The notes beneath the pieces were generated by a model, which was not told where the DNA came from, searched no databases, and saw nothing but the letters and a program-made list of their open reading frames with translations. DNA of 64,000 nucleotides from Eledone cirrhosa. Lineage: Eukaryota. Location of the stretch: positions 179,242,001-179,306,000 of the forward strand of contig OZ024741.1 in the NCBI GenBank assembly GCA_964016885.1, given 5' to 3'. Positions 5,338 to 57,270 of the stretch are shown here, piece by piece; position 1 is the stretch's first letter, and each line of letters opens with the position of its first letter. Made by a program: the position numbers and the translations under genes.

Positions 5338-5426
<89 letters not shown>
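5338..5426. repeat. (CA)n microsatellite
   Basis: Direct reading. Confidence 0.99.
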
Positions 5427-5430
<4 letters not shown>

Positions 5431-6751
5431 TTGCTTTGTAGTGGACCACAGCTTACAAATCCATTTACCATATTGGATTGAAAAATTCAAATGGCATATT
5501 TAATTTGAAAGGTAAATTAATTAAAATTCGCTTATGAACGATGTACGACTTCAAAATGGATTCGACTAAAAAATATCAACCATGCATTTTAACATATGCT
5601 AGAAAGCGGAAACCATGAAATTACCCAGAGGTTTTAAATCATCAAACTACGAAATAGCTCAATTGTGAATAACTGGTACTTTGCATTACAGATACACCAA
5701 GAGTATTTCGTTTTGATACTTGATTTGGTAAATGAAATACCAATGGTATTTTTTTAACTCTTCTTGAGTACTAAAAAATGTATACTTCTTACTGAAGATG
5801 GCTTCAAGTTCGTTAGATTATTTTTTCTTCGCCAGCGCAATTTTTTTAGGTTTATCTAATGTCCATTTTCTTTTTCACATTCACCCTCTCTGAATTCTCA
5901 CACGTGATACAAACCTGCCAAACTCTAAAAACCCAAACGAGAAATTACATGAAAAGAAGTGTCCCAAAACGAAGAGAAATGAGCCAAAATGGAGAGATTT
6001 TATGTAATGAAAAGTATACCTATTTTCACAAGAGAAGAAGGCATATCTCACTCACGCCAAAGTGAGTGAGAGATCTTCCAGTTGGACGGGGAGAGTTGAC
6101 GGGTCTGGTGATACTACTTATGAAATGTTACAGTTTGCAAGTTTTGATCTTCAAGATGAGTGTTTTGATAAATTTTACACATCTTGTTGGTGTTGTTTTG
6201 CTTCGTTTTCTTTGTTTATCTTTTATAATCCTTCTCCATTATGACCGATTTGTGTGTCGTACTGTGTGGTTGAAATATGTGCAGCTGCCAGTCGAGCAGA
6301 ATGACCTTCTTATAAGCATTTGTGATAGATTACCGTGTTTGATGAATGATATTGTATCCAGCACATGTAGGGATACAAACTTTTAGCCCGTTGAAAGTCC
6401 GTGTTACAATAATAGATATTATTTGTATTATTTGGTTTGTGTCCTTTCTCGTCTCCGGACTATCTAAAAATTTGCTTTTATTCAATTTGTATGATACAGT
6501 AAATAGGATGGTAATGTTTTTAAAACCATTACAACCTTACATTTCCTCACAATTTCCACATCACTACATTTGTCACAACACTACAACCATCACAACACTA
6601 CAACCATAATAAAAGTACAACCATCACAACAATACAATTGTCATTACCACAACAATCACAATACATTTGTCATCACCACAATTATCACACTATTATAACC
6701 ATCACAGAGCAACATTTATCAACACTATAATTGTTACATCATTATTACTGT

Positions 6752-6945
6752 CAGTGGATTGGCAGTATGGTAGAGGGTCGGACGCCATGCTTTGCAGCAT
6801 GGAGTTACGGCCCTTTATGGTATAAGTTCAAATCCGGCCGAGGTTAACTTTGCCTTTCATCCTTACGGGGTCGATTAAATAAAGTACCAGTAGTAATACA
6901 CTAAGATAATTGCTGGCCTTGTGCCAAAAGTAGAAACAATGATTA
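6752..6945 (+). mobile_element. tRNA-derived SINE, near full-length
   Basis: A-box-like TGGCAGTATGGTAG, B-box-like GTTCAAATCC, central GCCTTTCATCCTTACGGGGTCGAT and 3' TTGCTGGCCTTGTGCCAAAAGTAGAAACAAT. Confidence 0.85.
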
Positions 6946-7073
6946 CTGTCATATAACATTTATCATCCCAATTGTCATATTACTACAACTATCGCAACAA
7001 CTACATTTGTCATCACCCCCAAATATCACATCACTACAGTCTATAATCATCACTACAGCCATCACAACACTAC

Positions 7074-7495
7074 AAATGTCACCTCACAACAACCACAACA
7101 CTACCTTAGTCATTACTAAAATGTCACCTCACAACAACCACAACACTACCTTAGTCATTACTAAAATGTCACCTCACAACAACCACAACACTACCTTAGT
7201 CATGACTAAAATGTCACCTCACAACAACCACAACACTACCTTAGCCATTACTATAAATGCCACCTCACAGCAACAATAACACTACCTTAGCCATTACTAT
7301 AAATGCCACCTCACAGCAACAATAACACTACCTTAGCCATTACTATAAATGCCACCTCACAGCAACAATAACACTACCTTAGCCATTACTATAAATGCCA
7401 CCTCACAGCAACAATAACACTACCTTAGCCATTACTATAAATGCCATCTCACAGCAACAATAACACTACCTTAGTCATTACTATAAATGTCACAT
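7074..7495. repeat. Minisatellite: ~4 x 45-bp units followed by ~5 x 46-bp variant units
   Basis: ATGTCACCTCACAACAACCACAACACTACCTTAGTCATTACTAAA then ATGCCACCTCACAGCAACAATAACACTACCTTAGCCATTACTATAA, head-to-tail with no spacers. Confidence 0.95.
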
Positions 7496-7616
7496 CACTT
7501 GATTACCCACTGCACTACATCGTCATAACTACAATTATTATCATTTCACTAATCATTATAATCGTCACAATACTATCAACCTCAGATACATTCCATTATC
7601 TGTGACCCCTCTAATA

Positions 7617-7802
7617 ATTGTTTCTACTTTAGGCACAAGGCCAGCAATTACCCAGTACATGACTGGTACTTTATTTTATCGACCCCGTAAGGATGAAAGG
7701 CAAAGTCAACCTCGGCGGGATTTGAACTCACATGGTAAAGAGACGTAACTTTGCTGGAAAGCATGGCGTCCGACCCTCCACCGATACTGCCAATTCACCG
7801 CC
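7617..7802 (-). mobile_element. tRNA-derived SINE, full-length
   Basis: Reverse complement of the 24470-24655 copy. Confidence 0.88.
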
Positions 7803-8009
7803 ATACATTTCCGCATGCAATTCAGGCGTTTCCTCACTGACCGCACAGAAAAATATTTACTGACTTCACCACCCTTACTAAGAGATTTGTCCGGTGGGTT
7901 GCTTCTTACTGCGTTACATGTTTCCAAAGCCACCCGTACATTGCTTGTACGCTGAGAGAAATAGATGTCATTTCTCAATTAATCCAGTACCGAATCAACT
8001 TTCTCAGTC

Positions 8010-8073
<64 letters not shown>

Positions 8074-8076
<3 letters not shown>

Positions 8077-8380
8077 TAAAAGGAAAAGAAAATGCTGACA
8101 AATTGTTCCCAGTGAAAAATAATTTAATTAGGAATAAGTAAAAACTAGTAATAAGTATTGGTTAGTATTGAGTTTTGGTTTTAAGTTTTTACCGGTTGCG
8201 CATTTCTAATGCTTTTCAAAAATAATTTTGAGATAGAGCGCCCGTGATGTTTGCTCTAATCTGATTAGTTTTGCAAATTCTACCTGTTTTATGTGAAAAA
8301 AGTGGCTCCAGATGTATTAAAATAAGTTTCGCGCCAATTTGTGTTGCAAAAATTCTTGTGGTCAAAACAATTTTATAAAT
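8074..8380 (-). mobile_element. (TA)n-embedded element with degenerate U3-A8 hammerhead (family D)
   Basis: Minus strand 8186-8223: UUGAAAA-GCAUU aga AAUGC-GCAA(GAAA mutated)-CCGG-UA; same architecture as 32531-32568. Confidence 0.55.
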
Positions 8381-8381
8381 A

Positions 8382-8714
8382 TATATCTAAATCATTTTTC
8401 TTTTATTCTGGTGATTATGATGAGGCACAACCTTGAAGAGACTTATTGGATCATATCGAACCCAGTACTTATTTTATCGATCTCTTTGTTATGAGACATG
8501 AACAAACAGTAAGCGTCAACGCATATAAACGATGGGCTTCCACACAGAATTCGTCTACAAAATTTAACTCACAAGTCAAACAAAAATGTTGGTATAAATC
8601 CCTTGGCAAAAGGGCCACGCAGTTAGACTGAACTCCAATCCCCGTTGTTAAGAAGCGATCTCTTTAATCTCACATATATAACTGCGTCTTTCTCTCTTGA
8701 TATATGTATGTATA

Positions 8715-8750
<36 letters not shown>

Positions 8751-8774
8751 CACACATATATACACATATATACA

Positions 8775-8810
<36 letters not shown>

Positions 8811-9259
8811 AAAATGTGTGTAATCCTTGGTAGTTAGGTATATATAGGGGGAAGAAAAAAATGGCTTCACTTGTGCTTTCAACAAATTTATTTTCTTCAC
8901 AAAATCCAAAAGGAATTTTTTTCCGGATTAGAAAAAATTTTTTTTTTTTAATTTTTATAAATTGAGTCGTTCAATTTATAAAATTTTTTTTTAAAGAATT
9001 TTTTCTAATCCGGAAAAAAATTATTTTTGGATTTTGTGAAGAAAATAAATTTGTTGAAAGCACAATTGAAGCCATTTTTTTCTTCCCCCCTGTCTTATAT
9101 ATATATATATATATATATATAGGAACCAGTAATATATATAGGAACCAGTAAGACCCCAAGACCGGGGTCTTACTGGTTCCTATTACCCACTCTACTACCT
9201 CAAGTATTGAGTACTTTGGTGCGTTATGGTCCACCTGGTTCCTTACCACATTTCCTTCG

Positions 9260-9316
<57 letters not shown>

Positions 9317-9337
9317 TGTATATATGTGTATATATGT

Positions 9338-9393
<56 letters not shown>

Positions 9394-9725
9394 AGAGAGA
9401 AAGACGCAGTTATATATGTGAGATTAAAGAGATCGCTTCTTAACAACGGGGATTGGAGTTCAGTCTAACTGTGTGGCCCTTTTGCCAAGGGATTTATACC
9501 AAAATTTTTGTTTGACTTGTGAGTTAAATTTTGTAGACGAATTCTGTGTGGAAGCCCATCGTTTATATGCGTTCTTCTCTGCATGTGTTGACGCTTACTG
9601 TTTGTTCATGTCTCATAACAAAGAGATCGATAAAATAAGTACTGGGTTCGATATGATCCAATAAGTCTCTTCAAGGTTGTGCCTCATCATAATCACCAGA
9701 ATAAAAGAAAAATGATTTAGATATA
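8382..9725. repeat. Nested inverted duplication: ~320-335 bp arms (8382-8700 / 9391-9725, plus adjacent TA tracts) around an inner ~120-bp-arm hairpin (8847-9090)
   Basis: Arms are near-exact reverse complements; the right arm has an extra ~17 bp (TTCTTCTCTGCATGTGT); inner hairpin loop GTCGT at 8966-8970. Confidence 0.92.
9121..9260 (+). mobile_element. (TA)n-embedded hairpin element, family B (short form)
   Basis: 20-bp-arm hairpin 9138-9183, then shared tail CCTATTACCCACTCTACTACC..AAGTATTGAGTAC..TGGTGCGTTATGGTCCA. Confidence 0.8.
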
Positions 9726-9819
9726 TAAAGATAGTGTCCCTCGACAACATATTTATATGTATAGGAAGAGCCCCAGCATGACCAATAAAAGAATATATAT
9801 ATGTGTGTGTATGTATATT

Positions 9820-10312
<493 letters not shown>

Positions 10313-10476
10313 AATTAAATTGAATTAAATTAAGGATGTCATGTCCGAGAGACATGCGCCATATCCACTGTAGTTACCTACATCGCTATGTGTGCTTACA
10401 CACTTTTACAAATTATTCCCTGTGATTATTTCATGTTTATTTTGGATATATATATATATGTCAGTCAATTTCTAGT

Positions 10477-10563
<87 letters not shown>

Positions 10564-10666
10564 TATATATATAAATATATATATAAATATATATATATAA
10601 ATATATATATAAATATATATATAAATATATAAATATATATATATATAAATATATATATATATAAAT

Positions 10667-10760
<94 letters not shown>

Positions 10761-10770
10761 GTGTGTGTGT

Positions 10771-10828
<58 letters not shown>

Positions 10829-11022
10829 TGTTATACTTGGGGAGGGTCATATTTTTGTAATAATATTGCCAGAATTAATAACAGAACACACTCACTGTTT
10901 CGTTGGTTTTCGCTTCTGTATCTTTTATATCAGTTAATTTATTCGGTCCTCAATGTTTACCATTGACTGACCAACGGTCAAAAATACAGATATAATATAG
11001 ACACAAACACATATATATTTAC

Positions 11023-11070
11023 TTTCCTCAGACGAAGAGATATTATCTCGAAATATCAAGATATATGAAT
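11023..11070 (+). ncRNA. Degenerate type I hammerhead-like motif
   Basis: CAGACGA (U4>A)-a-GAGAU auu AUCUC-GAAA-UAUC aa GAUA-UA; stem I poorly paired. Confidence 0.5.
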
Positions 11071-11161
11071 AAATTAAGGTAAAAGACTAATCGTCAGCGT
11101 TATCTCTTACATTTATATTCTATCTCCAAACCTGCATTGCTCTGGCCTTCTAACTCCAAAC

Positions 11162-11192
<31 letters not shown>

Positions 11193-11360
11193 CTATCCCG
11201 AGTTCAATCGGAGGTAACCACAGTAAGTAAGGTACTCAATACAAAGCAGAGTGTAGATATTTAATATAGAAAAGGCTTCTACAGGACTAGAACTGTTTCA
11301 TCCGGGGGAAATCAGCAGAAATCATCAGCGCTCCCTGATGATTTCTCCCGAATGAAACAT
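11193..11360 (-). mobile_element. (TA)n-embedded element, family A, with rearranged hammerhead and short inverted cap
   Basis: Shares AATCGGAGGTAACCACAGTAAGTAAGGTACTCAATAC and TTCTACAGGACTAGAACTGTTTCAT with 40603-40740; inverted CTGATGATTTCT..AATGAAACA at 11335-11359. Confidence 0.75.
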
Positions 11361-11368
11361 ATATAGAA

Positions 11369-11458
<90 letters not shown>

Positions 11459-12139
11459 TACCCCAGCATGGTCACAGTCTAATTACTTAAACCACTAAAA
11501 GAATGTACCACATCGTAGATATTTGAAATATTCTGTAATCTGGTGTTTCATCTTAGATCAACATTTAGCTGATTACTCTTTCCATTGGATTTGTTTCGGC
11601 TCTTCCCGCTCTTCCTTACTTTTCTAGTTGGATTTCCCCCCTTGAGATTGTGCGTGCAATCAAAAGAGCTGATCTATCTGCTCTCTTATTGGTGCTAATA
11701 GTATAGGTCGATTCTTCCATTATGTCTTTTCTTACTTCTTTTCTGTCACTCTCATTCTTCTCCGGAAGAAATCGAGTGTGTTCAGATCTGGAGAGAGAGT
11801 AGAGTCAGCCAGGTTACAAATGCCCAAGACATATGTGTATCACTACGACACCCCTACGACACCATCAGAAATTACGGGTTATGGAAGGATGAAAAGATCG
11901 CAGACGATTCTTTCCTGCTTCCACACTTCCTTTCTATCATTGTCTCTTCCAACATTTAGCTGTGTCACCGCTGTTATCTATATATTGTCCTTCCTTGCTG
12001 TTAGGTGTTTAGAGACAGGCAAATGCTTGCTTTTCCAAATCAACATCCAATTCCTCTGCAAGATTATGCAACAAGGGTGAAAATCAGTGAGTAGACTTTC
12101 ACGCCGTGTAACAACTTTAATCAGTATTGAAAACTTATG

Positions 12140-12173
<34 letters not shown>

Positions 12174-12289
12174 ACAGAAAAGACAATTCAAAGGACAGCC
12201 TTTAACAGACCTTGAAGCACTGCAAAATTTCATTGTCCAGCTGGGAAGATGCAACAAAGAACAGATAAATAGGTGCTTTCTTGCCACTC

Positions 12290-12530
12290 AGCATTTCCCG
12301 AGTTGTCTAAGCTTCGCTCAGATCAGGTCACCGTCAGCAGAAACAGATGCGTGTCCCAACAGTAGCACCAGCGACCACCATTTGGGCCACAAGCACAGGT
12401 TGTGTGCAGCATGTGCGGTCGGGATTGTAGGTCCCTTGTTGTGCGTTTCCCCCCATATACGAGCCTATCGCCAGCTGCCATGAAGAGAAACGTTATCGTC
12501 CATTTTGATAGACTACAAGGAAGGCGTTAG
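12290..12530 (+). pseudogene. RTE-like LINE extreme 3' end
   Basis: ...QVVCSMCGRDCRSLVVRFPHIRAYRQLP* resembles the RTE terminal CxxC-RxCxS-H zinc finger. Confidence 0.5.
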
Positions 12531-14254
12531 TATGTGTGTATGTGTGTTTGTGTATGTCTGCGCGCGCGTGTGTACGTGTTTATATTTTAATAACAATCAT
12601 TTCTTTTAAATAAAGAAAATAGTCATTTTCAGAGAAAAACTACAAGTAACAGTGTAATATTGTGCTTTAATTATTTTTCTTTCAAATTGTTTTTAATTCG
12701 TTTGACAGATGTGACGCACACATGCAAACTACCTGCCTGAAGGATATGCTTCAATTTCACTATATGTTTACACCAACTTAGTAATTATGTCAATAGTTAT
12801 GGTATCATGGTAGCTTGTCTCTAATTACAAAAGGCAGCTCTGTGTTAAAGGAAGGAGGGGGGGGTCTAGGAATTTGGATTATAAGACTTGGGTTATATAT
12901 TTGTCTGTATTCTTTGTAATATACTGGGAAATTTATTAGCACAGAGAAGTAAAGTGACGAGAAAGATAATTTCAAATAATCGAAGCTAACTCAGTGTCAA
13001 GTTGAGTTGAGCTTTGTTGAACAACGCTTAACAAAACCAACAAATTCAAGAGTAACCACTCAAAATCGAAGCGTAAAACAACATTCCTTTCAAATTTTTT
13101 TTTTTTCAAATTGATTACATCAGTATATATCAGACATGGGCCAACCTTTTGCGAGCAGTGGGTCGCATAAGGTGGGTTGCAGTACTAAAAAAACTCAAGA
13201 CAATTTTGAAATTAGGCGTGCCATTCAGAAAGCCAAACGGGAAACATAACTGGTATAGATACAGCCAAGGGCCACTTTAATGACATCATGATGGGGTTGG
13301 GTATGGGATAAACAAGTTTGTTTTAAATCTATCAACTTCATTATCGTGTAAGCACTTTAGTCATAATAATAGTACTGCCTTTTACAGTCTTCACAATCAC
13401 ATTGGTCCAATCTCTTCACGACACATTAGGCAAGAAGTATCAGACAAAATATTGTGGTATTTAGTTAGGCTCTTTACGTTCTCAGTTCAAATCCCGCCCA
13501 TGTCAACATTTTATCATTCCGGGGTCGATGAAACAAAGTACCAGTCAAATACTGAGGACAATTTAATCAACTGTCCCCTAACCCCACAAACAATTACTGA
13601 CGTTGCGCTTAAATTAGAAACAATTCCTATTACAAGGATTAGACTTAAGACCGATAAATATTTATAAATGAATGAACAAGACAAAAAAAACATTATTAGA
13701 TACATAAAATTGATACTAACTCAGAAGCATATAAAAACGAAATAATTGGACAAAAAACAAAACCTGACAAAGAGTGGAAGAACTCATAAGAGTCAACGAC
13801 CATCCAAAAGTGTGTAAATATGTATATACACATGTACATATTATGTATATGTGTATATACATGGGTGCATGTGTATATACGCGGGGACATAGAAATAGTC
13901 GGGCTGGACACCTGATTGCGCGGTTAAACCACTGGGAGTGAAGGACCCCTAGTCTTTGTCAGGGCATTCTTCTAGGAGAAGGCAACTCAGGAAACTGGGA
14001 TAACTCCGATATAAAACCTGCGGCTCAGTAGTTACCGATGATGCTGATCTTTTCTTCTTTTCGGGTTATAGCTACTGTCACTCAGAGAGTGGGATTGGCT
14101 CAGTGCACAGTCTTTCCTCACTTTAAAAAATATCTTCACGCACAGGCATTGCACGATAGAATTAATTGATAATTATTAATAATGATATATATATATATTG
14201 ATAATTATATATATATTATATATATTGATAATTATATATATATTATATAATAAG

Positions 14255-15172: not shown

Positions 15173-15334
15173 TAAAATAACAGATTAAAGTTTAAGCAAA
15201 GAATCGCTGCTTTCACCCTTAACGGGATCTTCTGAAACTAACAAGAGATTGACTTTGTTAGTTTCAGAAGATCCCGTTAAGGGTGAAAGCAGCGATTCTT
15301 TGCTTAAACTTTAATCTGTTATTTTAATAAATAT
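15165..15334. repeat. Perfect ~80-bp-arm palindrome containing a hammerhead-like motif in each arm
   Basis: 15165-15244 is the reverse complement of 15255-15334, 10-nt loop; + arm 15260-15310: AGUUU-CAGAAGA-u CCC guuaa GGG u-GAAA-GCA..UGC-UU-AAACU. Confidence 0.9.
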
Positions 15335-15802: not shown

Positions 15803-15806
<4 letters not shown>

Positions 15807-15865
15807 GTGACAGTCAAGTTTGCAATTTTCAACAGTTGAAAATTGCAAACTTGACTGTCACCACA
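15803..15865. repeat. Perfect 31-bp-arm palindrome directly abutting a (TA)n tract
   Basis: TGTGGTGACAGTCAAGTTTGCAATTTTCAAC-A-GTTGAAAATTGCAAACTTGACTGTCACCACA. Confidence 0.95.
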
Positions 15866-15870
15866 CATTA

Positions 15871-15909
15871 TGAACCTGAAGATTGCGAAAGCATGAAAGA
15901 ACTTGTTCA
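15871..15909 (+). ncRNA. Minimal type I hammerhead ribozyme
   Basis: Stem I UGAAC/GUUCA; CUGAAGA; stem II UGC-GAAA-GCA; GAAA; minimal stem III AGAACU; cleavage triplet CUU. Confidence 0.7.
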
Positions 15910-16050
15910 ATTCACACTTAACATTTAATATTCTATCATACTATTTCATTATAATACCATTATAAATTTTAAATGATTGTAAATAAAACGAGTAAATCAG
16001 ACAAAGTTGGAATTCCTCTTATTAATATATATATATATATATATATATAT

Positions 16051-16726: not shown

Positions 16727-16900
16727 AAGAAAAAGGTTTAGGGCCCCGGCGGCTGAGCTACAGCCGAACTAGTTCGGATCTAGCTGTCGAAACGATCTGA
16801 GCTCAGCCGTTGGGGTCCTGAATCTTTTCATATTACGCACTCTACTGCCACAAGTATTGCGTACTCTGGTGGGTTATGGTCTAGCTGGTTTTTTATCAAA
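16727..16900 (+). mobile_element. (TA)n-embedded hairpin element, family B
   Basis: CTAGCTGTCGAAACG..TGAGCTCAGCCGTTGGGGTCC plus family tail; partial inverted arm upstream. Confidence 0.75.
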
Positions 16901-17011
16901 TCATATCTGAAGCTTTCGCAGTATTTTTTTTTAGAAATTTTAGCCAAAAAAAATATAGTGAAAGCTTCTATATCTAATTTCAAACTCGCTTGCTGTTTCA
17001 AAACATACTTA

Positions 17012-24469: not shown

Positions 24470-25185
24470 AGGGGCGGTGGATTGGCAGTATCGGTAGAGG
24501 GTGGACGCCATGCTTTCCAGCATAGTCCTTTACGATCTGAGTTCAAGTCCCGCCGAGGTTGACTTTGCCTTTCATCCTTACGGGGTCGATAAAATAAAGT
24601 ACCAGTAATGCACTGGGTAATTGCTGGCCTTGTGCCTAAAGTAGAAACAATTATTATTGTTAAATGAGTTCAAATTCCGCCGGGGTTAGCTTTGCCTTTC
24701 ATCCTCACGGGGTCGATTAAATAAATTACCTGCAACGCACTGAAGTCGATTTAATCGACTCCCTCCACCGAAAAAAAGAATTGCTGGCCTTGTGCCTATA
24801 GTAGAAATCATTATTATTATTGTTAAGGGCAGTGGATTGGCAGAAACGATAGAGCGTCGGACAAAATGATTTGCAGTATTAAGTTATGGCGCTTTACATT
24901 CTGAGTTCAAATCCCACCGAGGTTAGCTTTGCCTTTCATCTTGTATGTACTAGTAATGCACTGGGGTTGATTTAGTCGATTTTCACTTTCCATTCAAATT
25001 GCTGGCCTTGTGCCAAATGTAGAAACAAGCATTATTATTGTTATTATCATTACCTCTTTATGGTCTGAGTTCAAATCCTGCCAAGGTTAACTTTGCCTTT
25101 CATCCTTACGGGGTCGATAAAGTAAAGTACCAGTAATATACTGGGATAATTGCTGGCCTTGTGCCAAAAGTAGAAACAATTATCA
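24470..25185 (+). mobile_element. Head-to-tail array of four tRNA-derived SINE copies
   Basis: 24470-24655 is full-length (A box TGGCAGTATCGGT, B box GAGTTCAAGTCC, (ATT)n tail); further copies follow at ~24660, ~24826 and ~25060, each after an ATT tail. Confidence 0.88.
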
Positions 25186-31218: not shown

Positions 31219-31560
<342 letters not shown>

Positions 31561-31764: not shown

Positions 31765-31830
<66 letters not shown>

Positions 31831-31837
<7 letters not shown>

Positions 31838-31997
31838 ATACTTTGGGAGGGTCATGTTGCCAATAAGAAATACACGCACCAGTTGCTTTCACTTCAATTT
31901 ATTATAATATTGGCAACATGACCCTCCCAAAGTATAACAATATCGGTTTCAACACACGTTTTCAGATAAAGAATCTTGCTAAACAAATTCAGAAACG

Positions 31998-32568: not shown

Positions 32569-32584
32569 TGAGTTGAGATGGAGG

Positions 32585-32624
32585 GTCTGTGGTTTTTCTC
32601 ACATCTGTGAGAAAAACCACAGAC
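32585..32624. repeat. Perfect 19-bp-arm palindrome capping the family D element
   Basis: GTCTGTGGTTTTTCTCACA-TC-TGTGAGAAAAACCACAGAC. Confidence 0.95.
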
Positions 32625-32631
32625 TCTCTTG

Positions 32632-32811
<180 letters not shown>

Positions 32812-33399: not shown

Positions 33400-33444
<45 letters not shown>

Positions 33445-33495
33445 AGATTCTACAGGACTAGAACTGTTTCATTCATTTGAAATCATCAGGAATCT
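33445..33495 (-). ncRNA. Type I hammerhead ribozyme (family A), intact core
   Basis: AGAUUC-CUGAUGA-u UUC aaau GAA u-GAAA-CAG uucuaguc CUG-UA-GAAUCU. Confidence 0.85.
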
Positions 33496-33728
33496 GGGTA
33501 TCAAAAAATAAATATGGTATTTATAGGTCTCTACAAGTGGTAGGAGAGGGTGGGGAGTGGGATGGGTGCAGGTCATTGGTTGATAGAAAAGGGAATTCAT
33601 TAAAAGCTAATTCTACAAAGCTATAGTTTATTTTTATTTTTATTATTTATGTTTTTAGAGTAACAAGGGCAGACAGAATTCTATAAACAGGTTCCGGATG
33701 GCAACAGGCATATATATATATATAACTG

Positions 33729-34434: not shown

Positions 34435-34437
<3 letters not shown>

Positions 34438-34514
34438 AAAAGGCGGCTGAGCTTCGGCCGTTTCTCAGCTAGATCCGTTATGGTCCACATGGTTCCTTAC
34501 CACACTTTATTTGT
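34435..34514 (+). mobile_element. Internally deleted family B element
   Basis: GGCGGCTGAGCTTCGGCCGTTTC fused to CGTTATGGTCCACATGGTTCCTTACCACAC. Confidence 0.65.
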
Positions 34515-34556
34515 TATATATACACATGTGTGTGTGTGTGTGTGTGTGTGTGTACG

Positions 34557-35289: not shown

Positions 35290-35362
35290 ATTACGGGGTC
35301 GATAAAATAAAGTACCAGTAATGCACTGGGTAATTGCTGGCCTTGTGCCTAACGTAGAAACA

Positions 35363-35409
<47 letters not shown>

Positions 35410-35607
35410 GGGTGGTGGTTTGGCAGTATCGGTAGAGGGTCGGACAACAGGCTTTGCAGCACAGAGTTACGCCCCTTTCTGATCTGAGTTCAAATCCTGC
35501 CGAGGTTAACTTTGCCTTTCATCCTTACAGGGTCGATAAAATAAAGTACCAGTAATGCACTAGTACCAGTAATGCACCAGTAATGCACTTGTGCCAAAAT
35601 AGAAACA

Positions 35608-35656
<49 letters not shown>

Positions 35657-36450
35657 GGGCGGTGGATTGGCAGTATCGGTAGAGGGTCCCATGCTTTGCA
35701 GCATAGAGTTAAATCCCGCCGAGGTTAACTTTGCCGTTCATCCTTACGGGATCGATAAAATAAAGAACCTGTCACACACTGGTGTCGATTTAATCAACTT
35801 TCCGCTCCCCCCAAAATTACTGGCCTTGTGCCTATATAAGAATTATTATTATTATTATTATTATTTCTTCCTGCTGTTGTAAAAGGTGGTGAATTGGTAG
35901 AGCGTCGAAGAAAATGCCATTTCGTATTTGTTCTGACTCTTTGCATTTTGTGCTCAAATCCCGCTGAGGTCAACTTTACCTTTCATGCTCCTGAATTTGA
36001 TAAAATAAAGTACCAATCAAGTACTGGGATCGATTTAATCGACTTTCCCTTCCTCAAAATTGCTGGCCTTCTGCCAATGCTAGAAAGAATTATTAACATC
36101 AAGCGACACATTGCAGAGTTGTTAGAGCGTCAGATTAAAATGTTTCACGATATTTCTTCTGGCTTTCTGCGCTGAACTCACCTTTGACTTTCATCCTTCC
36201 GGGGTCGATAAAAGAAAGTGCCAGTCAAAAACTGGGAATGATTTAATCGATTCTTCCTCAGCCCACAAAACATTGATCTTGCGCATATAGAAACTAAGGA
36301 CGCTTGATGGCCAGAATCGTTAGAGGCCAACTTTGCTTTTCATCCTTTAGTGGTCGATAAAATGAAGTATCAGTTATGTAGTGATCTTGATGTAATAGAT
36401 TTTTCCACTCCCTCGAAATTGCTGGCCTTGTGCCAGTGTTAAAATCAAAA
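35290..36450 (+). mobile_element. Head-to-tail cluster of 5-6 tRNA-derived SINE copies separated by (ATT)n
   Basis: Repeated SINE bodies at ~35290, 35408, 35656, 35883, 36170, 36325. Confidence 0.82.
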
Positions 36451-36721: not shown

Positions 36722-37068
<347 letters not shown>

Positions 37069-37285: not shown

Positions 37286-40271
<2,986 letters not shown>

Positions 40272-40273
<2 letters not shown>

Positions 40274-40602: not shown

Positions 40603-40860
40603 GGTAAGTTATTCCGGGTTGAATCGGAGGTAACCACAATAAGTAAGGTACTCAATACATAGCAGAGTATAAAAACTTTAATATAGATGAGATTCTACAG
40701 GACTAGAACTGTTTCATTCTTTAGAAACCATCCGGAATCTGGCTTTCCAAAATAAATACCACATTATAAATACCACAACATTTATTTTGGAAAGCCAGAT
40801 TCCTGATGATTTCTAAAGAATGAAACAGTTCTAGTCCTGTAGAATCTCATCTATATTAAA
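40603..40860. mobile_element. Family A element with 81-bp inverted arms (40677-40757 / 40780-40860)
   Basis: Arms are reverse complements; the minus-strand arm core is mutated (CGGAUGG), the plus-strand arm is intact. Confidence 0.88.
40797..40847 (+). ncRNA. Type I hammerhead ribozyme (family A), intact core
   Basis: AGAUUC-CUGAUGA-u UUCU aa AGAA u-GAAA-CAG uucuaguc CUG-UA-GAAUCU; predicted cleavage after GUA at 40841. Confidence 0.87.
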
Positions 40861-40872
40861 ACTATACATATG

Positions 40873-44566: not shown

Positions 44567-47500
44567 GTCAGTCAACGCGATCAGTCGCATATTTTGGTGT
44601 GGGAGACTATTCATTAAATTTAAGATGAATACTATCTCTGACAGTAATGCCACAACTACCAGTCATATTGAATAACTGGATATTCTTCTAACTATATCTA
44701 CTGAAGACACCTTTTATTCGAATTCGTAGAGATATCCGACTAAATACATAATTCACTTTACAAGGAATTGCTACAAACAGCATGGCTGAACACAACATCA
44801 ACAACAACAACATCAATGGAGTACCGAAGAAAAACGAGAAAGGTAAGCAAAATTTATTCAGTTGTAACTACAGAAGAAACCGAAATTATAAATCGCATTT
44901 CTCTTGGAGTTGCGAACTTAATGATGATTTATTTAATTGTTATAAAATGGCAAAAAACAATCCCTCCATTGGCTATATGAACAGAATGAAGCTACGCTGG
45001 GACGAAATACACCCAGAGCTAAATCATTTCACAGCGTCAACTACGCCAACAAGCGACTTTGTTGAACCTAAAAATAAGATAAATATTATTCATTGTAAGT
45101 CCCCCACAACAAACACGGAATCAATAACACGTGCTACAGGTCGCCATGCTACTAGACTTCCCAGCAGCCAGGTCGAACAGCGCCTTGAGACAACTATGCC
45201 TGTAAGAAATTTGACACCACGTGTACCATCTAAATCTACCTCGAATGCTGGGGAAAACACTATCGATAATAATAATAATCGAAGAAATAATAATAATAAT
45301 CGAAGAAATGATAATAATAATCGAAGAAATTTGACACCACGAGTCTACCTCGACTATTGTGGAAAATACTATCGGTAATGATAATAATGAAAAGTATAAA
45401 CAATTGAAAATTTCCCTCAACGAAATCTTCCAGAGAGAAATTAATTCCTGTATAAACATTTCTCTTGCTGAACGTTTTAAAACAACAATATTTAATAAAA
45501 AATAAAAAATAAAAAATAAAAAATGAAATATTACGTGTTATTGACGAAACAGGGATGAATATTTCCGACGGATAAAAACCCCAACATTTTGGCAAATCTA
45601 CGCCTGTTTATATGCCTTAGAAACGACAGTGAAGCATTATCTTGGTGATAGCAGAGATATTAACAAGAAAAAACACCACCAAAAATACCACCATATATAA
45701 CTAAAATAGAAAAAAAATTGCTGACCTACGAAAAACCATAAGATATGTGACAAGGCTCCTTACGTGCAAACAAGCACACAAAAAAACTTCACTCCTCACC
45801 AAAAAAGAGTGAAAAATAAAATAGGGACGATGTTTGGTAACAGTAAAACCAGAACTCTTCAATATAAGCTGATTACCCTCAAACAAGAATTGAGAGCTGT
45901 TAGCGAAAAACGTCGATACCTGAAGAAAGTAGATGAAAGAAAAGTGCTTAATAAAAGATTCAGACGAAACCAAACATCAGTCTATAGAAATATGAAGAGC
46001 AAAATAATAAGTGTCACTGAGGCTCCATCCCAGAAAGACAGATTCCTTTTGGAGAAAAATATGGGGTGAAAAGAAGAATTTCAACCAAGATGCAATGTGG
46101 CTAAAAGAAATCCAAAAAAACTATTGCTCCTACACTACAACAAAAACATACGAAATAAGTGAGGGGACCCTTGCAACTGTGATAGGAAAACTCCAAGATA
46201 AAAAAAACACCAGGAAGAGACATGATTGTCGGCTACTGGTACAAAAAACTGATATTCTATCGGAGGTATCTTACCGACCTCTACCAACAAGTTCTTAAGG
46301 GAAATACATTTATACTAGAATGGTTGACATTAGCACAAACATTACTGGTCCCCAAGAACAAAGACACCCACCTGGCAAAAGACTACCGACCCATTGCATG
46401 CCAGAACCTGATGTATAAGATGTATACAGCCTGCCTGAACCTATTCCTCCAAGATCACTGTGAAAATAATAACATCATCACAGATGAACAAGCAGCTGGA
46501 AAGAAAGGGGTTTGGGGATGTGTTGAACAACTCCTAATCAACAAAATTTCGGAGGTGCGACAACTTAGGAGGAATATGGCTACAGTCTGGCTGGACTACA
46601 GGAAAGCTTTCGATTCTGTTCCCCACTCTTGGGTGTTGAGGCCCTCCGACTTTCTAAAGTCCCAGACATTATTATTAGAGCCATAGAAAAGCTGTCTTCT
46701 TCTTGGGCTACTATCCTAAGGTTAAAGACAGAGAAGGAGGACTCTATTTTCACTGATAAAATAAAATATCGCAGGAGTATATTTTAAGGAGACTCTATTT
46801 ATCCTGTCATTAAACCCCTTATCCTTTCTGCTCAAGAAATGTGAAGGATACATCATTGGCTCGCAGGAGGACAGAAATACGAACCTAACCCATAATTTCT
46901 TTGTGGATGATCTGAAACTCTATGCCAAGAACATGGATGGGATAAAGAAAACTCTTGACCTGGTTACAACATTCTCAAAGGATATAGGAATGGAGTTTGG
47001 CCAAGATAAATGCTCATACGTGACTGTAAAGCGGGGAAAAACAACCGAATCTAGCAACATTGTCATCAATAGCCTAACTGTTTCACCGATATCTGATGAG
47101 GACTGCTACAGATACCTGGGGATAGATGAGAACATATCCTATAATGGTATCTGTCATAAGGAACGCGTAACCAGGGAATACTACACCCGATTAAGAAAGA
47201 TATGGTCATCGGAACTCTCTGCGCAAAACAAAACAGTGGCTCACAATGTGTTTGCTGTGCCTGTCCTAACACCAACTTTTGGAATACTCAATTGGACGAT
47301 AGACGAAATCCGAGCGATTGATGTTAGAACTCGAAAAATACTAAGCAACACCGGAAACTTCCACATCAACAGTGACATAGACCGCCTTTACTTGAAACGT
47401 AAGTACGGAGGCAGAGGCCTAACATCAGTCCAGACAGCATTTGAATGTCGCATCATATCCCTCCGACAACATCTAAGAACCTCAAAGCGTAGGAGCCCGT

Positions 47501-48683
47501 CTCTTGAGCAAGTCTATCTGCATGAAACAGATAAGATCATGAGAGTTGGGAAGGAACTCCTCGAGAGGTATTCCCTGTGTGATAATCAAAAACTCACACC
47601 CAGGGAAGTTGCCCAGCAGTATCGCAGTGAATCCATGGATGAAAAACTGCATGCTTATCACCAAAACATCATGCATGGATATGTTGCCAGGAAGCTTCAG
47701 AGTGAGAGTAATATAGATAAAGAAAGTAGTCTATCTTGGACCAACAACCGCTATATTGGTTCCCACTTTGAAGGATACGCTTTTGCAATCCAAGAACAGG
47801 AAATCAACACGAAATACTTGATTCACAAAAGAGATAGGGATGCAGGTAAAACACCTAGATGTGATAACAAGTGCAAACTCTGTAGAATTAACATCGAAGA
47901 TGTCACCCATGTCATCAGCAGCTGTCCAAAGATGTCATCGCGGTACTATCTACCTATGATGCATGATGTAGTGGCCAAAACACTGTACAATGCAATCCGT
48001 AGAAAAGATAGCCCCGATAATAAACACATTAAAAGCTACAGCAATGTGGAAGACATACATATACATAATATGAAAGAGTACAGGTGGAATGTTCCAGTAA
48101 AAACCCCAATAAAATGCAGGTATAACAGACCAGATATTATAATATGGGACAGGGAAAAGAAGGCATGCACAGTGGTGGAAGTTAGCTGTCCAGCAGATGC
48201 CAATATAATATCAAAGATTAGCGAAAAGAAGAATATTTATGCAGAACTGATGAGAAATCTGCAGATACTCCACCCTGATTATACCTTCAGATTTATGCTT
48301 GTGATTATTGGGGCACTGGGATATGTTAGTAACTGCCTCAATACGAATCTTGAGAAGCTAGGCTTCACAGGAACAGAAAGAACACAGCTAGTTAGGAAAT
48401 TACAAGTACAATCCATTAATGGAACAGTAAAAATATATAAAATATTTCAAACATTTTGCATCTAATAACTGCATATACACATGTACAGATACTAAGCATA
48501 TACACATGCATACATACAACTCAAAACATACACATCCACACATACAATAACATCCATATCTACACATGCATGCAGACATATCTACCTAGTTGATGTTGTG
48601 TAAATTCCAATGATCTTGTGTCTATGTTAGAAACCGACTGTCTCTCTATTAGCAAAAATTTGTGAAATTATAAAACCAGAAGA
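44567..48683 (+). mobile_element. Near full-length R4/Dong-type non-LTR retrotransposon (RT + CCHC + REL endonuclease), inactivated
   Basis: YRPIACQNLMYK, WLDYRKAFDSVPHSW, FVDDLKLYA, YRYLGI, RLYLKRKYGGRGL, CKLC..EDVTHVISSC, RPDIIIWD..VVEVSCP; frameshifts plus a stop/deletion at the QGD motif; flanked by (TACA)n on both sides. Confidence 0.92.
46903..48465 (+). CDS. Intact C-terminal half of the R4/Dong ORF (RT thumb, zinc knuckle, PD-(D/E)xK endonuclease); part of a broken ORF
   Basis: 520-aa open frame beginning at the VDD catalytic motif. Confidence 0.8.
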   Translation: MDDLKLYAKNMDGIKKTLDLVTTFSKDIGMEFGQDKCSYVTVKRGKTTESSNIVINSLTVSPISDEDCYRYLGIDENISYNGICHKERVTREYYTRLRKIWSSELSAQNKTVAHNVFAVPVLTPTFGILNWTIDEIRAIDVRTRKILSNTGNFHINSDIDRLYLKRKYGGRGLTSVQTAFECRIISLRQHLRTSKRRSPSLEQVYLHETDKIMRVGKELLERYSLCDNQKLTPREVAQQYRSESMDEKLHAYHQNIMHGYVARKLQSESNIDKESSLSWTNNRYIGSHFEGYAFAIQEQEINTKYLIHKRDRDAGKTPRCDNKCKLCRINIEDVTHVISSCPKMSSRYYLPMMHDVVAKTLYNAIRRKDSPDNKHIKSYSNVEDIHIHNMKEYRWNVPVKTPIKCRYNRPDIIIWDREKKACTVVEVSCPADANIISKISEKKNIYAELMRNLQILHPDYTFRFMLVIIGALGYVSNCLNTNLEKLGFTGTERTQLVRKLQVQSINGTVKIYKIFQTFCI

Positions 48684-49004: not shown

Positions 49005-49260
49005 TTTAACCTAAAAGATCACAAAAATAATTTCGAAACAAACCCTACAATTAGATTAATATGCCCATCGAAGTCAGATATAGATAGAATTAACAAGTAT
49101 ATACTAGATAGCGCAGATCAAAGACAAACTAGAAATTAAACTATGGGGTAACACTAACGAAGCAATCGATTGGTTTAACAAAATAGACAATAAGGAAACA
49201 TCCAACTTCATACAGTTCGATATCAATGACTATTACTCATCCATCTCCCCAGTCACCCTA
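49005..49260 (+). pseudogene. Penelope-like RT N-terminal fragment (different clade from 29461-30802)
   Basis: LKDHKNNFETNPTIRLICPSKSDIDRINKYILD..LKLWGNTNEAIDWFNKIDNKETSNFIQFDINDYYSSIS; ends at a TA tract. Confidence 0.8.
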
Positions 49261-49276
49261 AATATATATATATATG

Positions 49277-49475
49277 TGGGGGGGGGGGGGGTCAGGACCC
49301 CGACGGCTGAGCTCCGGCCGTTTCGACAGCTAGTTGGGGACTGTCTAGAACTAGCTGTCGAAACGGCCGGAGCTCAGCCGTCGGGGTCTTGACTCTTTTC
49401 CTATTACCCACACTACTACCATAGAGTACTCTGGTGCGTTATGGTCCACCTGGTTCCTTATCACATTTCCTTCGG
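49277..49475 (+). mobile_element. (TA)n-embedded hairpin element, family B (best-preserved copy)
   Basis: 45-bp arms 49291-49335 / 49349-49393; right arm = stem II 3' strand-GAAA-CGGC cggagcuca GCCG-UC-GGGGUC. Confidence 0.87.
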
Positions 49476-49511
<36 letters not shown>

Positions 49512-51009
49512 GATATATTGAGTGTTACTATCAACATGTAACCTAGTACAACCTGTCACATGGTCGAGCCATCAATGACTAAACCGGAAATCCTACCAAG
49601 TTTGCTTGGTGAGGAGGAGGATTTTGGACACCCTGCAGGATGAAAAACAAAACCTGCCAGAGGGCAGAGGATCTCATTAGAATCTACAGTCATCCAGTAG
49701 TATTAGTATGTACATATACATATATGTCGTGTTGGTGTGTAGATATGTATATGTTAATTTAAGAGTGTGCAGAGTTCTTATATATTTCACTGGTTGGCAC
49801 TGGATGGTCTTTTATGGCGTCCACGTGTTTCTCAGTTTGTTCAACATGCCGCTCAGCGAACCGATGACGCGCAATATATGCTCAGTCAAGCTAAGCACCT
49901 AGCCTCTCTCATTTCGAAGAGCAACCTGCGTGGGGAAAAGCCACATGCTACACGAGGTGCTTTTAGTATGTCTATCATAGGATAGTCTAGCAGAACAGAT
50001 TGGATCTAGAGGTGTAAGCTTCGATAAAAATCCTACTTGTCTCATAGTAAGCAGTAGTTCATGTGACGATCATCAGTTTAATTAGATGACCTCGGCGTCG
50101 TAAATACCAGTGTCTTCGCAGATGATCGACTATTAATTCAACAATGGGTTGGCACAACTGTTCCAGTTAGCGGAGAAATCTATGAGTATGTAAGTGTGCG
50201 AGCAGCATATATTCTAACCATTCTAGAAAAAGCAAAATGAATGCTTCATCTTCGAAAAAATAGGAATGAATCAAGAAGAAAAAAAGATGCATGTGTGTGT
50301 GTGTGTGCGTGCGAAAATTAAATGGAAAACACAGTAAAACGATACAATATAATTAATATATATATATTAGTTTAACGCTTGATATAGTAGGAAAAGGGTC
50401 TCGTTTCTAGCGTTAGTCCTACATCAAAAAATAGGAAGAGAAATAGATGAAAAGAAAGATAGATTGAGAAGAGGAAGAAACGGAAAAAAAATGTTTCGAG
50501 AAAAAACATGTCTGCTCTGTCAAATCCGACCCAAACTAAACATCAAAAACAACTTCAGGAAGAGAGAGTCTGAATTCATGGTGTCGAATGTTGACCAAAT
50601 GGAGATAGTAGTTCCTTAAATTCATATTTGTCGGCTAGCAGAATCGTCAGGCAGGTCATTATATGTAAATATTATATATGCTTGTTCATATGTATACATG
50701 TGTGTATGCATGTGTGTGCATACATGTATGTATATGCTTGTTCAGGAGTGTATACATATGTGTGATAAAATATGGAGACGTGGTCGAGTCCATCGGTAGA
50801 GGTGGGGACTAAATGGCACTGCCCCCTCCCCTCACCCCCACTTTTCAATTGTGCACCTTCAAATTTAGAAACATTCAGTGATATGTTTATTCCGAAACTC
50901 CACCTTAGAATTATCCCCACACACCCCTAGCATCAAAGCTTAGCAATGGACCTGGATATGATATTTGAACATATACATAAATTATAAAATGGATCACAAA
51001 GATTTAGAG

Positions 51010-52690: not shown

Positions 52691-55329
52691 GCTGAATTAA
52701 ATGCGTGTGTGTGTGTGGTTGGATTAATTGTGTATATGTTTGTATATGAGTGGTTAAATGAAATGTACCATTGTATTTAGTTTCGTCTCTCCAGGTTCCG
52801 TATCCCAATCCCGTCTAAGTCGGGTTTGTCTTTGTGTATCTCACTGGTTAATAAAATAAATAGCAGTGTTATTCTGAAATAGATTCACTAAACTTTCAAC
52901 TTTCTTCGTTGCAACACATTTTTCCTGTAGCTGGTTAAAATAAATCAGTTTTTAAAAAACCTAGCCAACGTAAAACCTGTTGCTAAATATGTTGAGCAAG
53001 CTGTGCTACTGAAACGATTCGGTGGTATTGGTTTACGTATAATCTCTTCTTTATTGGTCCAATGTTTCAAAACCTTATTTCTATATATTTTGACATCGCT
53101 GCACTGCCAAAACGATTCAGATGTTTTTACTTATGTGAATTCTCTTTTTTATCGGTCCCCTGTTTCCATTCTTGTGTTCACGTTTGCTCTTCTTTGGTGA
53201 ACAACACCCTCTCCTCTTCAACCTGGATTGGCTCCAACAAGGAGATAATTGAAACCCCATAACTGTGAACGGGGTTTAATTTTGGTATTCTTTATTATTA
53301 TTATTACACCTGTCTTCCTTTGGAGCCAGTCCAGATTGAAGAGCAGAGGATGTTGTTCACCAAAGAAAAGCAAACGTGATGTGTTATCCCTCTTATTCGA
53401 GTTGCAGGCAACCCAGACGTCCTTCTCTAAAACGGTAAGGGTGAGGTTAGGGAAAGTTGGTAGTTATTTCTATAAAGTCGCGTGACCAAATAGAAACTGC
53501 CCCGCTGGCTCTACCAATACTTACTAAACGATGGCAATATATGTTAGTGGATTAAGGTAGTGCATTGGCAGAATTGGTAGAGCGTCGGGTAAATTAGTTC
53601 GTGATATGTTGTTATTTAGTTACGTCTTCTTGCAACTTGAGTTCAAACTTGAACCAGAGTGTGTGTGTGTGCAGGCAAATGGAGTTTAAGCTGTAAGTTC
53701 CTAGTTACCATCCTCTTAAAACAAACCATTTGGTTTCCTCCACTCATACTATCTAAATAAATAGTCCCCAAATCAGAGATCGTCTTGAGCCTTTTGATAC
53801 CAATCCGCCAGAAACCGCCCTGGTTCTACAATACGAAACTATTTGTTTTAAGATGTTTATATTTATCTAAAAACCTAAAAAGGATTAAAGTGCTTGTATT
53901 TATTTATCTAAAAACTTTCCATCGTAATGTTATATAAGAAGCCTTGTTAAATTATGTTTCAAACACTATTTGGGAAAGTTATATTACTAAATCCCAGCAA
54001 ATTTTATATTATTTTCAAAATTAATTAAAAATCGTAGGCTGTGTATTCCATTAACAATATGTAAACGAAGTGGTTAAACTCCAAGTATGAAATATATCCT
54101 TCAATATCCTGTAATTTAAAAAAATCACCCATTGTGATGGAAAACAGCGTAAAAGATTCACATGCCTACTATGGTCTTATAACTCAATATTTTTCTACTG
54201 AAATCTTCGGGTATGGAAAGCAGGGTTAGTGATAAAGTTAGAGTAAAATAACGGTTTCTGATTTAAACACAAAATCAACAATTACAGGGAGGGGAATCGA
54301 TTAAATGGACCCCAGTGTGTTACTGGTACTTTATTTTATCGACCTTGTAAGGATGAAAGGCAAAGCTAACCTCGACGGGATTTGAACTTAGAACGTAACT
54401 GATGGCTGTAAGTCAATGCCAAAAATAAAAAAAATAAATAAAAAAAAGCATGTTGTCCGACGCTCTACCGATACTGCCAATCTACCATCCTGTTCTAGTA
54501 AAATAATAAAAATGTATTATAAGTGTATCTAACATACCTTAACAAAATAACAACAACAAGGAAACGCAAACTGTCAGCTGTGATCCCATTTTGTTTAAAC
54601 TGTTTCGTCAGGGCAGCGCTCAATTTACCAATGTCTTTCAGAACAATTTGCAAGATGTAATTAAAATGGCGATAGTTTGTATTCTATTTACAGGTAAACC
54701 CTTCTGTGATTGGCCAATTTGTATCAGTGAAGCCAACCACAACAAATTCCGTAATTACTGCTACTTTGAAACCTTTTAAGACAAGATTTAGTGCCTTTCC
54801 TTCATGATCAGCAACAATTTCATGGCGTACTCTCTGGTGGAATAGACATTCGTCGATTTTGACGATGAGTGTTACAGTTGTTCGGTCAACAGAACAACCT
54901 GCTCGTGAAGTTAACATATAAGTATCTGAGCCTTCCACAGACACGTGTACCCCTTAACGTAATTCTTGGAGAGAGATTTAATATCACATAATTACAGCTA
55001 CAGTCCATCCGGTAGACTTCCGCCTATCCAACTTCACTCACAATACAGGTCGACCTGAAGTTGTGGTAAATAACACAGGGGCGTGTCGAACCTGGTACCT
55101 CGTAATTGCGAAGAGAACTCTTTAATCATCCGACAAGCTGTCTACTATTAATTTCCAGCCACAGTAATATGGGTTTTTTACCCCCATATCTCCAACTGAC
55201 AAACATAAGCATCGCTACTTTATTCATATTCCATTGCATATAATTACAAACAGAAAAAGGCGGAAAAGGTGGATTACAAAATCGAAAGATAAAGAGGACA
55301 GAGGAAAACTCTACACCCTGGAATGGACG

Positions 55330-56874: not shown

Positions 56875-57270
56875 TAATTGTTTCTACTTTGGACACAAGG
56901 CCAGCAATTACCCCAGTGTATTACTGGTGCTTTATTTTATCGACTCCGTAAGGATGAAAGCAAAGTTAACCTCGGTGGGATTTGAACTCAGAAAGTAAAG
57001 GGCCATAACTCTATGCTACAAAGCATGTTGTCTGACACCCTTCCGATACTGCCAATCCACCACCCTTAATCTGTCATATTAAAATAATGTTTTTTTTATT
57101 TAGACTCAAGGCCAACAATTTTGAGGGAGGGGCAAGTCGATTAAATCGGTCCCAGTGTGTTACTGGCACTTTATTTTATCGACCCCTTAAGGATGGAAGG
57201 CAAAGCTAAGCTCGGCGGGATTTGAACTCAGAACGTAAAGAACCGTAACTCTATGCCGTAAAGCATGTGG
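56875..57270 (-). mobile_element. Two tandem tRNA-derived SINE copies
   Basis: SINE bodies each preceded by the duplicated flank TCTGTCATATTAAAATAAT; further copies at 54250-54490 and 56200-56400. Confidence 0.82.

What the first reader, a model, noticed from the sequence alone, without database searches (positions are those of the whole stretch)
49277..49475. Family B: only the 3' half of a hammerhead, with the CUGANGA half replaced by a fold-back at stem II
Seen: the right arm reads AACUAGCUGUC-GAAA-CGGC(cggagcuca)GCCG-UC-GGGGUC, i.e. stem II 3' strand, GAAA, stem III, GUC triplet, stem I 3' strand. Where CUGANGA should be, there is the reverse complement of this half. The same geometry occurs at 36724-36835, 31333-31447 and partly 16727-16830. 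Inference: nascent cDNA snaps back in the stem II hairpin, self-primes and copies itself before rejoining (TA)n, disarming the ribozyme. Alternatively the half motif is a substrate strand for trans (I/II-format) cleavage by an intact relative.
Basis: partly seen in the sequence, partly recalled or inferred. Interest (0 to 1): 0.75.

Follow-up and report, generated by a model that had tools for sequence, protein, structure and literature searches.

The report
Head-to-head stubs of a Penelope retroelement
This hairpin is one of more than 15,000 short, mirror-image stubs of a known kind of jumping gene (Hydra-clade Penelope) whose long copies carry a complete hammerhead-ribozyme motif; the stubs hold only half of the motif, likely because the element's RNA starts inside the ribozyme and is likely copied twice, once from each side of the cut DNA.

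Summary
The half-hammerhead is real, but it is not an orphan and not disarmed by a snap-back at stem II. Long copies carry the complete type I motif with core UUGAnAA (U3-A8, a published PLE variant): 7,142 pattern matches against 75 controls, 133 against 0 for the finding's own subfamily. They flank a 719-aa RT/GIY-YIG ORF with the Hydra-clade motifs. Insertions have one tailed and one tail-less end facing outward; the hairpins (at least 15,747) are the shortest cases. Both arms stop at a hard edge 33-48 nt before the cleavage site (123 of 205 arms, 3 in the next 52 nt, none at the stem II 5' strand), junctions differ (81 of 88), and the tail-less arm is often the longer one, so it cannot always be a self-copy. 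Best reading: two run-off cDNAs from an RNA that starts in loop II, joined head to head. The RNA start and any cleavage are inferred; no RNA run was available. The scan noted Hydra-PLE stubs and U3-A8 before, on other DNA of this and other genomes.

The parts
49291..49342 (-). Inverted arm (tail-less end): positions about -41 to +11 of the element, counted from the hammerhead cleavage site; outer ~10 nt replaced by a G run at 49278-49291
49343..49403 (+). Direct arm: end of loop II, stem II 3' strand, GAAA, stem III, GUC, stem I 3' strand, up to the 'short end' TTCCTA (inferred first RT start site)
49351..49387 (+). 3' half of the type I hammerhead motif; predicted cleavage between 49382 and 49383
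49404..49477 (+). Tail = 5' leader of the next tandem unit in full-length copies; ends at the 'long end' (inferred second RT start site); holds a small hairpin that is repeated after the long end in full-length copies
49262..49275 (.). (TA)n target, left side
49476..49512 (.). (TA)n target, right side
36724..36916 (+). Sister hairpin insertion, another subfamily; arms end at -37 and -40
31334..31507 (+). Older, decayed hairpin insertion
16728..16901 (+). Hairpin insertion with a deletion in the inverted arm; direct arm starts at -42
9122..9262 (+). Insertion whose two arms both stop at the predicted cleavage site (-1 and -2)
34435..34516 (+). Deleted copy: part of the inverted arm joined to the end of the tail
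49005..49263 (+). Frameshifted RT fragment of a related Hydra-type PLE next to the finding; a separate, older piece, not shown to be part of this insertion
   Evidence: tblastn E 7.6e-24 to the L247 ORF

Best explanation
The hairpin is the shortest insertion form of an abundant Hydra-clade Penelope-like retroelement whose long copies carry a complete U3-A8 type I hammerhead motif, and it likely forms when both strands of a cut (TA)n target prime a cDNA on an RNA that likely starts inside loop II. Shown: parent element, ORF motifs, complete motif, one tailed plus one tail-less end per insertion, hard 5' edge at about -41 to -46, arms mostly of one subfamily, junctions unique. Inferred: one cDNA starts at about +20 (short end), the other at about +100 (long end); both run off the RNA 5' end after about 65 and 145 nt; their 3' ends are trimmed and joined with 0-4 nt of microhomology or a few filler bases. 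Inferred: the RNA 5' end is a transcription start at an initiator-like T(C/T)A(G/T)T motif in loop II, so this RNA lacks the UUGAnAA strand, cannot cut its own leader in cis, and is copied across the GUC site. The hairpins are then by-products of insertion, not a self-spreading hairpin element.
For: Parent found beside the window (L073, L080). Complete motif 7,142 vs 75 control; own subfamily 133 vs 0; 93.7% of stem cells paired in 19 copies, slid controls 24-52%. ORF of 719 aa with RWR, DKT, CxCx5C, CxxC, CxH, the Hydra features of PMC8557442 section 11. 9 of 10 long insertions show one tailed and one short end in opposite orientation by pattern, the tenth by blast. 123 of 205 arms end at -48..-33 (7.7 per nt), 3 at -100..-49 (0.06 per nt), 10 run past -100. 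Contig depth of public runs steps up at the same place: X1 about 0.2 to 1.5-3.5 million, X4 519 to 5,140-13,814 at -45. In the first 50 of 2,783 insertions with both arms reaching -41, no arm follows the parent past -47, and a non-parental G precedes A(-41) in 8 arms against a non-parental A in 1 (by-eye tally, after removing 4 and 3 cases that the partner arm explains). T(C/T)AGT is the conserved part of an otherwise divergent loop. Tail-less arm longer: 23 of 88 hairpins, 6 of 10 long insertions. Head-to-head chimeras with other TA-targeting elements (L041, L051, L036) and one pair of arms from two subfamilies (L197). In vitro, an anole PLE extends both target strands from two internal start sites that bound the tail, on uncleaved RNA (PMC11167929).
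Against: No RNA data test the start site or cleavage. 53 of 66 arm pairs agree within one base in the subfamily-specific 12-mer (shuffles: mean 11.9, max 25), which two cDNAs explain only with strong cis preference and a self-copy explains at once. For the 52 of 88 near-symmetric hairpins the junction cannot tell end-joining from fold-back. Deletion after insertion could make arms unequal in short hairpins. The arm mapper misplaces copies with internal deletions (it put the finding itself at +43 without partner), so the counts are approximate. Compensatory changes are few: 3 pairs, all in stem II, largely one split between two lineages, not above shuffles as a count of pairs (319 of 500). Rfam does not recognise the complete motif; minimum-energy folding gives the three-way fold for L235, a weak version for L122 (z -0.5) and another fold for L226. 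23 of the first 100 complete motifs read C3 with A8, a mismatch (by-eye tally). I saw no downstream promoter element match (by eye; consensus recalled).
Confidence: 0.7

Rival explanations
1. One cDNA runs off the RNA 5' end at about -45, folds back on a few bases of itself and copies itself as far as TTCCTA (self-priming, but at the template end, not at stem II).
For: Arms nearly always share a subfamily. Recurrent junctions with 3-4 nt of overlap such as GAAT/ATTC. Self-priming has been proposed for head-to-head PLE palindromes (PMC3846280 passages).
Against: Cannot give a tail-less arm longer than the tailed arm, chimeras or filler junctions simply; gives no reason to stop at +20, which is an independent end in long insertions.
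Confidence: 0.15
2. The edge at -41 to -46 is not a transcription start but an RNA cut or an RT block in loop II of a longer read-through RNA; two-ended priming holds otherwise.
For: No RNA evidence for a promoter; the edge lies in a structured, AU-rich loop; extra A/T runs at many junctions fit any template end.
Against: The edge is sharp in divergent subfamilies with unlike loops, falls on an initiator-like motif, and shows an excess of non-parental G.
Confidence: 0.1
3. One reading: snap-back in the stem II hairpin that disarms the ribozyme.
For: Centres do lie just upstream of the stem II 3' strand.
Against: 0 of 88 hairpins reach the stem II 5' strand or keep the loop.
Confidence: 0.03
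4. A MITE-like or retrozyme-like hairpin family that spreads as a unit.
For: Very high copy number and a constant outer form.
Against: 81 distinct junctions in 88 hairpins; a continuum to kb-long insertions with the same two ends; the inverted repeat is not terminal on the tail side.
Confidence: 0.02

Closest known systems
Hydra clade of C-terminal EN+ Penelope-like elements (Craig et al. 2021, PMC8557442; passages, section 11 and supplement rows seen; includes Hydra-1_Obim, 2507 bp, (TA)n)
   Same: Single ORF with RWK-type, DKT, CxCx5C, CxxC and CxH motifs; (TA)n target; about 3.1-kb unit; partial tandems, inverted 5'-truncated copy, tail at one end only; hammerhead in the pLTR.
   Different: The paper reports canonical hammerheads; here the core is U3-A8 with a long stem II. 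The tail is about 80 nt, not 30-40. Most insertions are minimal hairpins. I did not align this family to Hydra-1_Obim, so identity with it is untested.
PLE hammerhead variants of Schistosoma Cercyon elements (Cervera and De la Pena 2014, PMC4209133; parts 1-2 of 4 read)
   Same: U3-A8 in place of C3-G8, long helix II with an unpaired base at its 5' end, motifs in pairs on opposite strands.
   Different: Those motifs lack helix III and are thought to act as dimers; this one has a 5-bp helix III with a 9-nt loop and a ~33-nt loop II.
Poseidon element of Anolis carolinensis in vitro (Frangieh et al. 2024, PMC11167929; parts 1-2 of 4 read)
   Same: Two internal RT start sites that bound the tail, both target strands cut and extended, AT-rich target, uncleaved RNA used as template.
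   Different: Other clade; starts lie inside the ORF there, upstream of the first Met (+190) here; the parts read do not map an RNA 5' end inside the ribozyme or test how inverted copies join.
Penelope of Drosophila virilis (PMC2377424, passages) and Adineta vaga Penelopes (PMC3846280, passages)
   Same: Internal promoter in the pLTR with an initiator; inverted terminal repeats of variable size; head-to-head palindromes.
   Different: An intron follows the start there; arms here are colinear with the parent from -45 to +100. The Adineta paper favours self-priming, which the unequal arms here argue against as the only route.
Metazoan non-LTR retrozymes (bioRxiv 10.64898/2026.07.22.740005, part 1 of 5 read)
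   Same: Non-coding PLE-derived pieces with type I hammerhead sequence.
   Different: Retrozymes are head-to-tail tandems with a complete motif in each unit; these are head-to-head with half a motif.

Membership tests
Hydra-clade PLE | Single ORF, RT followed by C-terminal GIY-YIG | tested here: met
   719 aa from first Met in L244; FIQFDI, YRDDG, YIG..R..QH. Pfam gave no hit on three fragments.
Hydra-clade PLE | RWK motif, DKT, CxCx5C linker, CxxC and CxH in place of CCHH | tested here: met
   RWR 37, DKT 117, CNCPDRSIC 572, CNLC 670, CKH 698; definitions.
Hydra-clade PLE | Insertion into (TA)n; tandem/inverted pLTRs with a tail at one end | tested here: met
Hydra-clade PLE | Placement in the Hydra clade on an RT tree | not tested
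   No tree built; reference sequences not fetched.
Type I hammerhead (long copies) | Three stems around the core, G10.1-C11.1, GAAA, NUH site | tested here: met
   93.7% of cells paired; stems I and III 97.9%. Rfam gives no hit.
Type I hammerhead (long copies) | Watson-Crick pair between core positions 3 and 8 | tested here: met
   U3-A8 in 75 of the first 100 listed, C3 with A8 in 23, U3 with G8 in 2, C3-G8 in none (by-eye tally); T to C at position 3 in 24% of depth in X1.
Type I hammerhead (long copies) | Self-cleavage | not testable with these tools
   Arm ends at the cleavage site are only slightly enriched (2.0 vs 1.17 per nt): inconclusive.
Type I hammerhead (hairpin copies) | Core strand and stem I/II 5' strands present | tested here: not met
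   Absent from the finding and from all 88 mapped hairpins.
MITE | Terminal inverted repeats at both ends and a fixed internal sequence | tested here: not met
   Tail lies outside the inverted repeat; 81 of 88 junctions differ.
Non-LTR retrozyme | Head-to-tail tandem units, each with a complete hammerhead | tested here: not met
   Head-to-head, half motif.

The most novel reading that the evidence does not exclude
The element's promoter sits inside its own ribozyme: the mRNA begins with the substrate half of a hammerhead, and the only enzyme strand lies 3 kb downstream in the same transcript. The split keeps the leader with both RT start sites uncut by default, while pairing of the 3' enzyme strand with the 5' substrate half would cut it and give ends that can close a monomer circle. 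The more than 15,000 hairpins are then a fossil 5'-RACE record of that start and direct genomic evidence for two-sided priming in Penelope insertion.
Probability: 0.2. Interest if true: 0.65.

Novelty: new member of a known kind. Interest (0 to 1): 0.33.

Why it matters
The element class, the U3-A8 core and the inverted-plus-tail layout are all in print, so the hairpin itself is ordinary. The family is useful as a record: tens of thousands of insertions with a sharp 5' edge and unequal arms bear on an open question (how PLE inverted repeats form: self-priming or priming from both target strands) and give a precise, cheap prediction, a capped RNA start inside loop II. It also shows that searches fixed on CUGANGA miss thousands of motifs, and that so many perfect 50-bp hairpins could be a source of double-stranded RNA in introns (inference, not tested).

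Tried and rejected
Canonical core upstream of the arm: 58 matches; the first 30 of 58 were read and none had a stem I strand plus a closing stem II; they were junction accidents or chimeras. Rfam: no hammerhead among the best 150 of 227 window hits, none on a complete parent. Pfam: nothing on three PLE fragments. A type II permutation with the core in the tail: looked for by eye, no usable core or stem II partner. A peak of arm ends at the cleavage site: weak (16 arms in 8 nt against 34 in 29 nt), and several are deletion artefacts. A spliced leader (lead from e1-10097286): arms are colinear with the parent through the AG dinucleotides at -41/-40 and -36/-35, so no intron is seen there. First arm-mapping missed inverted arms and the first concordance count was mis-anchored; both were redone. 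RNA: no RNA holder listed, which says nothing on expression. Co-folding an enzyme strand with one arm did not give the hammerhead as minimum-energy fold. Literature searches listed no paper on a start site inside a PLE hammerhead; only listings and the named parts were seen, subscription papers are not covered, and supplement S2 of PMC8557442 (hammerhead drawings) was not seen and may hold this motif.

Full report
Observation. The window lies in a 3.0-Gb animal genome. The hairpin is far beyond chance. Five more copies lie in the window. The 29 best genomic relatives fetched are all hairpins with the same outer ends and differing centres. Exact patterns count 41,829 tails and 15,747 hairpins; both are lower bounds.

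The parent. Searches for CUGANGA failed. A profile scan of 464 kb around the window found arms without a fold-back in L073 and L080. This pattern has 7,142 matches against 75 controls, and 133 against 0 in the finding's own subfamily, whose stem II differs by compensatory changes. Covariation is modest and mostly one lineage split; Rfam does not see the motif; folding supports it unevenly. U3-A8 is a published PLE core variant (PMC4209133). L244 holds an open 719-aa ORF with all Hydra-clade motifs, and its tail runs into the next unit's 5' leader, as in L073.

Insertion layout. Ten long insertions each have one end with the tail and one without, facing outward. This is the inverted-copy-plus-tail layout described for PLEs (PMC8557442; PMC2377424; PMC3846280). 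The hairpins are the same layout at minimum length. I mapped 117 tail-anchored copies (95 anchors from the first 90 or so listed tail matches on contig C1, 22 from the 464-kb neighbourhood); 88 have an inverted arm within reach. The mapper misplaces copies with internal deletions, the finding among them, so counts are approximate.

Where the arms stop. With the cleavage site as zero, 123 of 205 arms end at -48 to -33, 3 at -100 to -49, and 10 run past -100. Contig depth in runs X1 and X4 rises about tenfold at -45 and falls after +100 (summed contig depth, possibly the same material as the assembly, so a check of the edge and not a copy number). Among the first 50 of 2,783 insertions with both arms reaching -41, none follows the parent past -47, and a non-parental G precedes the A at -41 in 8 arms against an A in 1 (by-eye tally). 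T(C/T)AGT at this place is conserved while the rest of the loop is not; it resembles the initiator consensus (recalled). These are marks of run-off at a template 5' end, likely a capped start. Penelope has an internal promoter in its pLTR.

One cDNA or two. The tail-less arm reaches further than the tailed arm in 23 of 88 hairpins (13 the other way, 52 near equal) and in 6 of 10 long insertions. The tailed arm must come from RNA, and an arm that is longer than it cannot be its copy, so the tail-less end is an independent start. Arms also join head to head with other TA-targeting elements. An anole PLE extends both target strands from two internal starts that bound the tail and uses uncleaved RNA (PMC11167929). 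Against this, arms agree by subfamily in 53 of 66 pairs, and symmetric junctions fit fold-back equally well; self-priming is in print as a proposal. Junctions are nearly all different (81 of 88), so hairpins form anew and do not spread as a unit.

Model. Shown: parent, motifs, two ends, hard edge, unequal arms. Inferred: transcription starts in loop II; the leader lacks the core strand and stays uncut; RT starts at about +20 and +100 on the two strands of a cut (TA)n; both cDNAs run off after about 65 and 145 nt and are joined. Long insertions would come from starts in the downstream pLTR of read-through RNA. A similar motif with a small hairpin follows each of the two ends in L244 and L073, which agrees with earlier scan notes on twin hairpins; I checked it on two copies only. 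Cleavage by the motif is untested, and arm ends at the cut site are only weakly enriched.

Novelty. Class, core variant and layout are known, and earlier scan notes on other DNA reached the same class (unchecked AI notes, not evidence; they point to a cephalopod host, which I did not check). What may be new is a start site inside the ribozyme and the quantitative case for two-sided priming; six literature searches listed nothing on the first, within the limits given under Tried and rejected. Verdict: new member of a known kind, interest 0.33.

Noticed in passing
window 11193-11368 (-), 33441-33507 (-), 40685-40870 (+ and -): A second family with a complete canonical CUGAUGA type I hammerhead motif, the same inverted layout (40685-40870 has the motif in both arms) and a tail motif shared with family B; found head to head with a family B arm in L041.
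   Followed up: partly
window 15806-15947 (+): Third TA-flanked element: a hairpin followed by a minimal CUGAAGA..GAAA motif; the same family is joined head to head to a family B arm in L051.
   Followed up: partly
window 44752-48465 (+): Decayed non-LTR retrotransposon with RT, zinc-binding and restriction-like endonuclease-type motifs, ending in (ACAT)n; the endonuclease type is my reading of the sequence.
   Followed up: partly
window 15190-15310, 31825-31945, 32575-32635, 2505-2556: Further fold-back repeats of other families, most next to TA runs; possibly stubs of other PLEs.
   Followed up: no
L108, L109, L125, L126 and 19 more rows: A subfamily whose core reads C3 with A8, a mismatch; about a quarter of complete motifs. 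It spread all the same, which fits cleavage being dispensable for insertion.
   Followed up: partly
L031, L053: Family B arms of two subfamilies joined to the same unrelated ~220-nt TA-flanked element (93% alike).
   Followed up: no
window, about 30 copies, e.g. 24478-24940, 35291-36294, 54243-54512, 56910-57266: A very abundant dispersed repeat, SINE-like by its spread.
   Followed up: no
window 38278-40272: A 2-kb (TA/CA)n tract.
   Followed up: no
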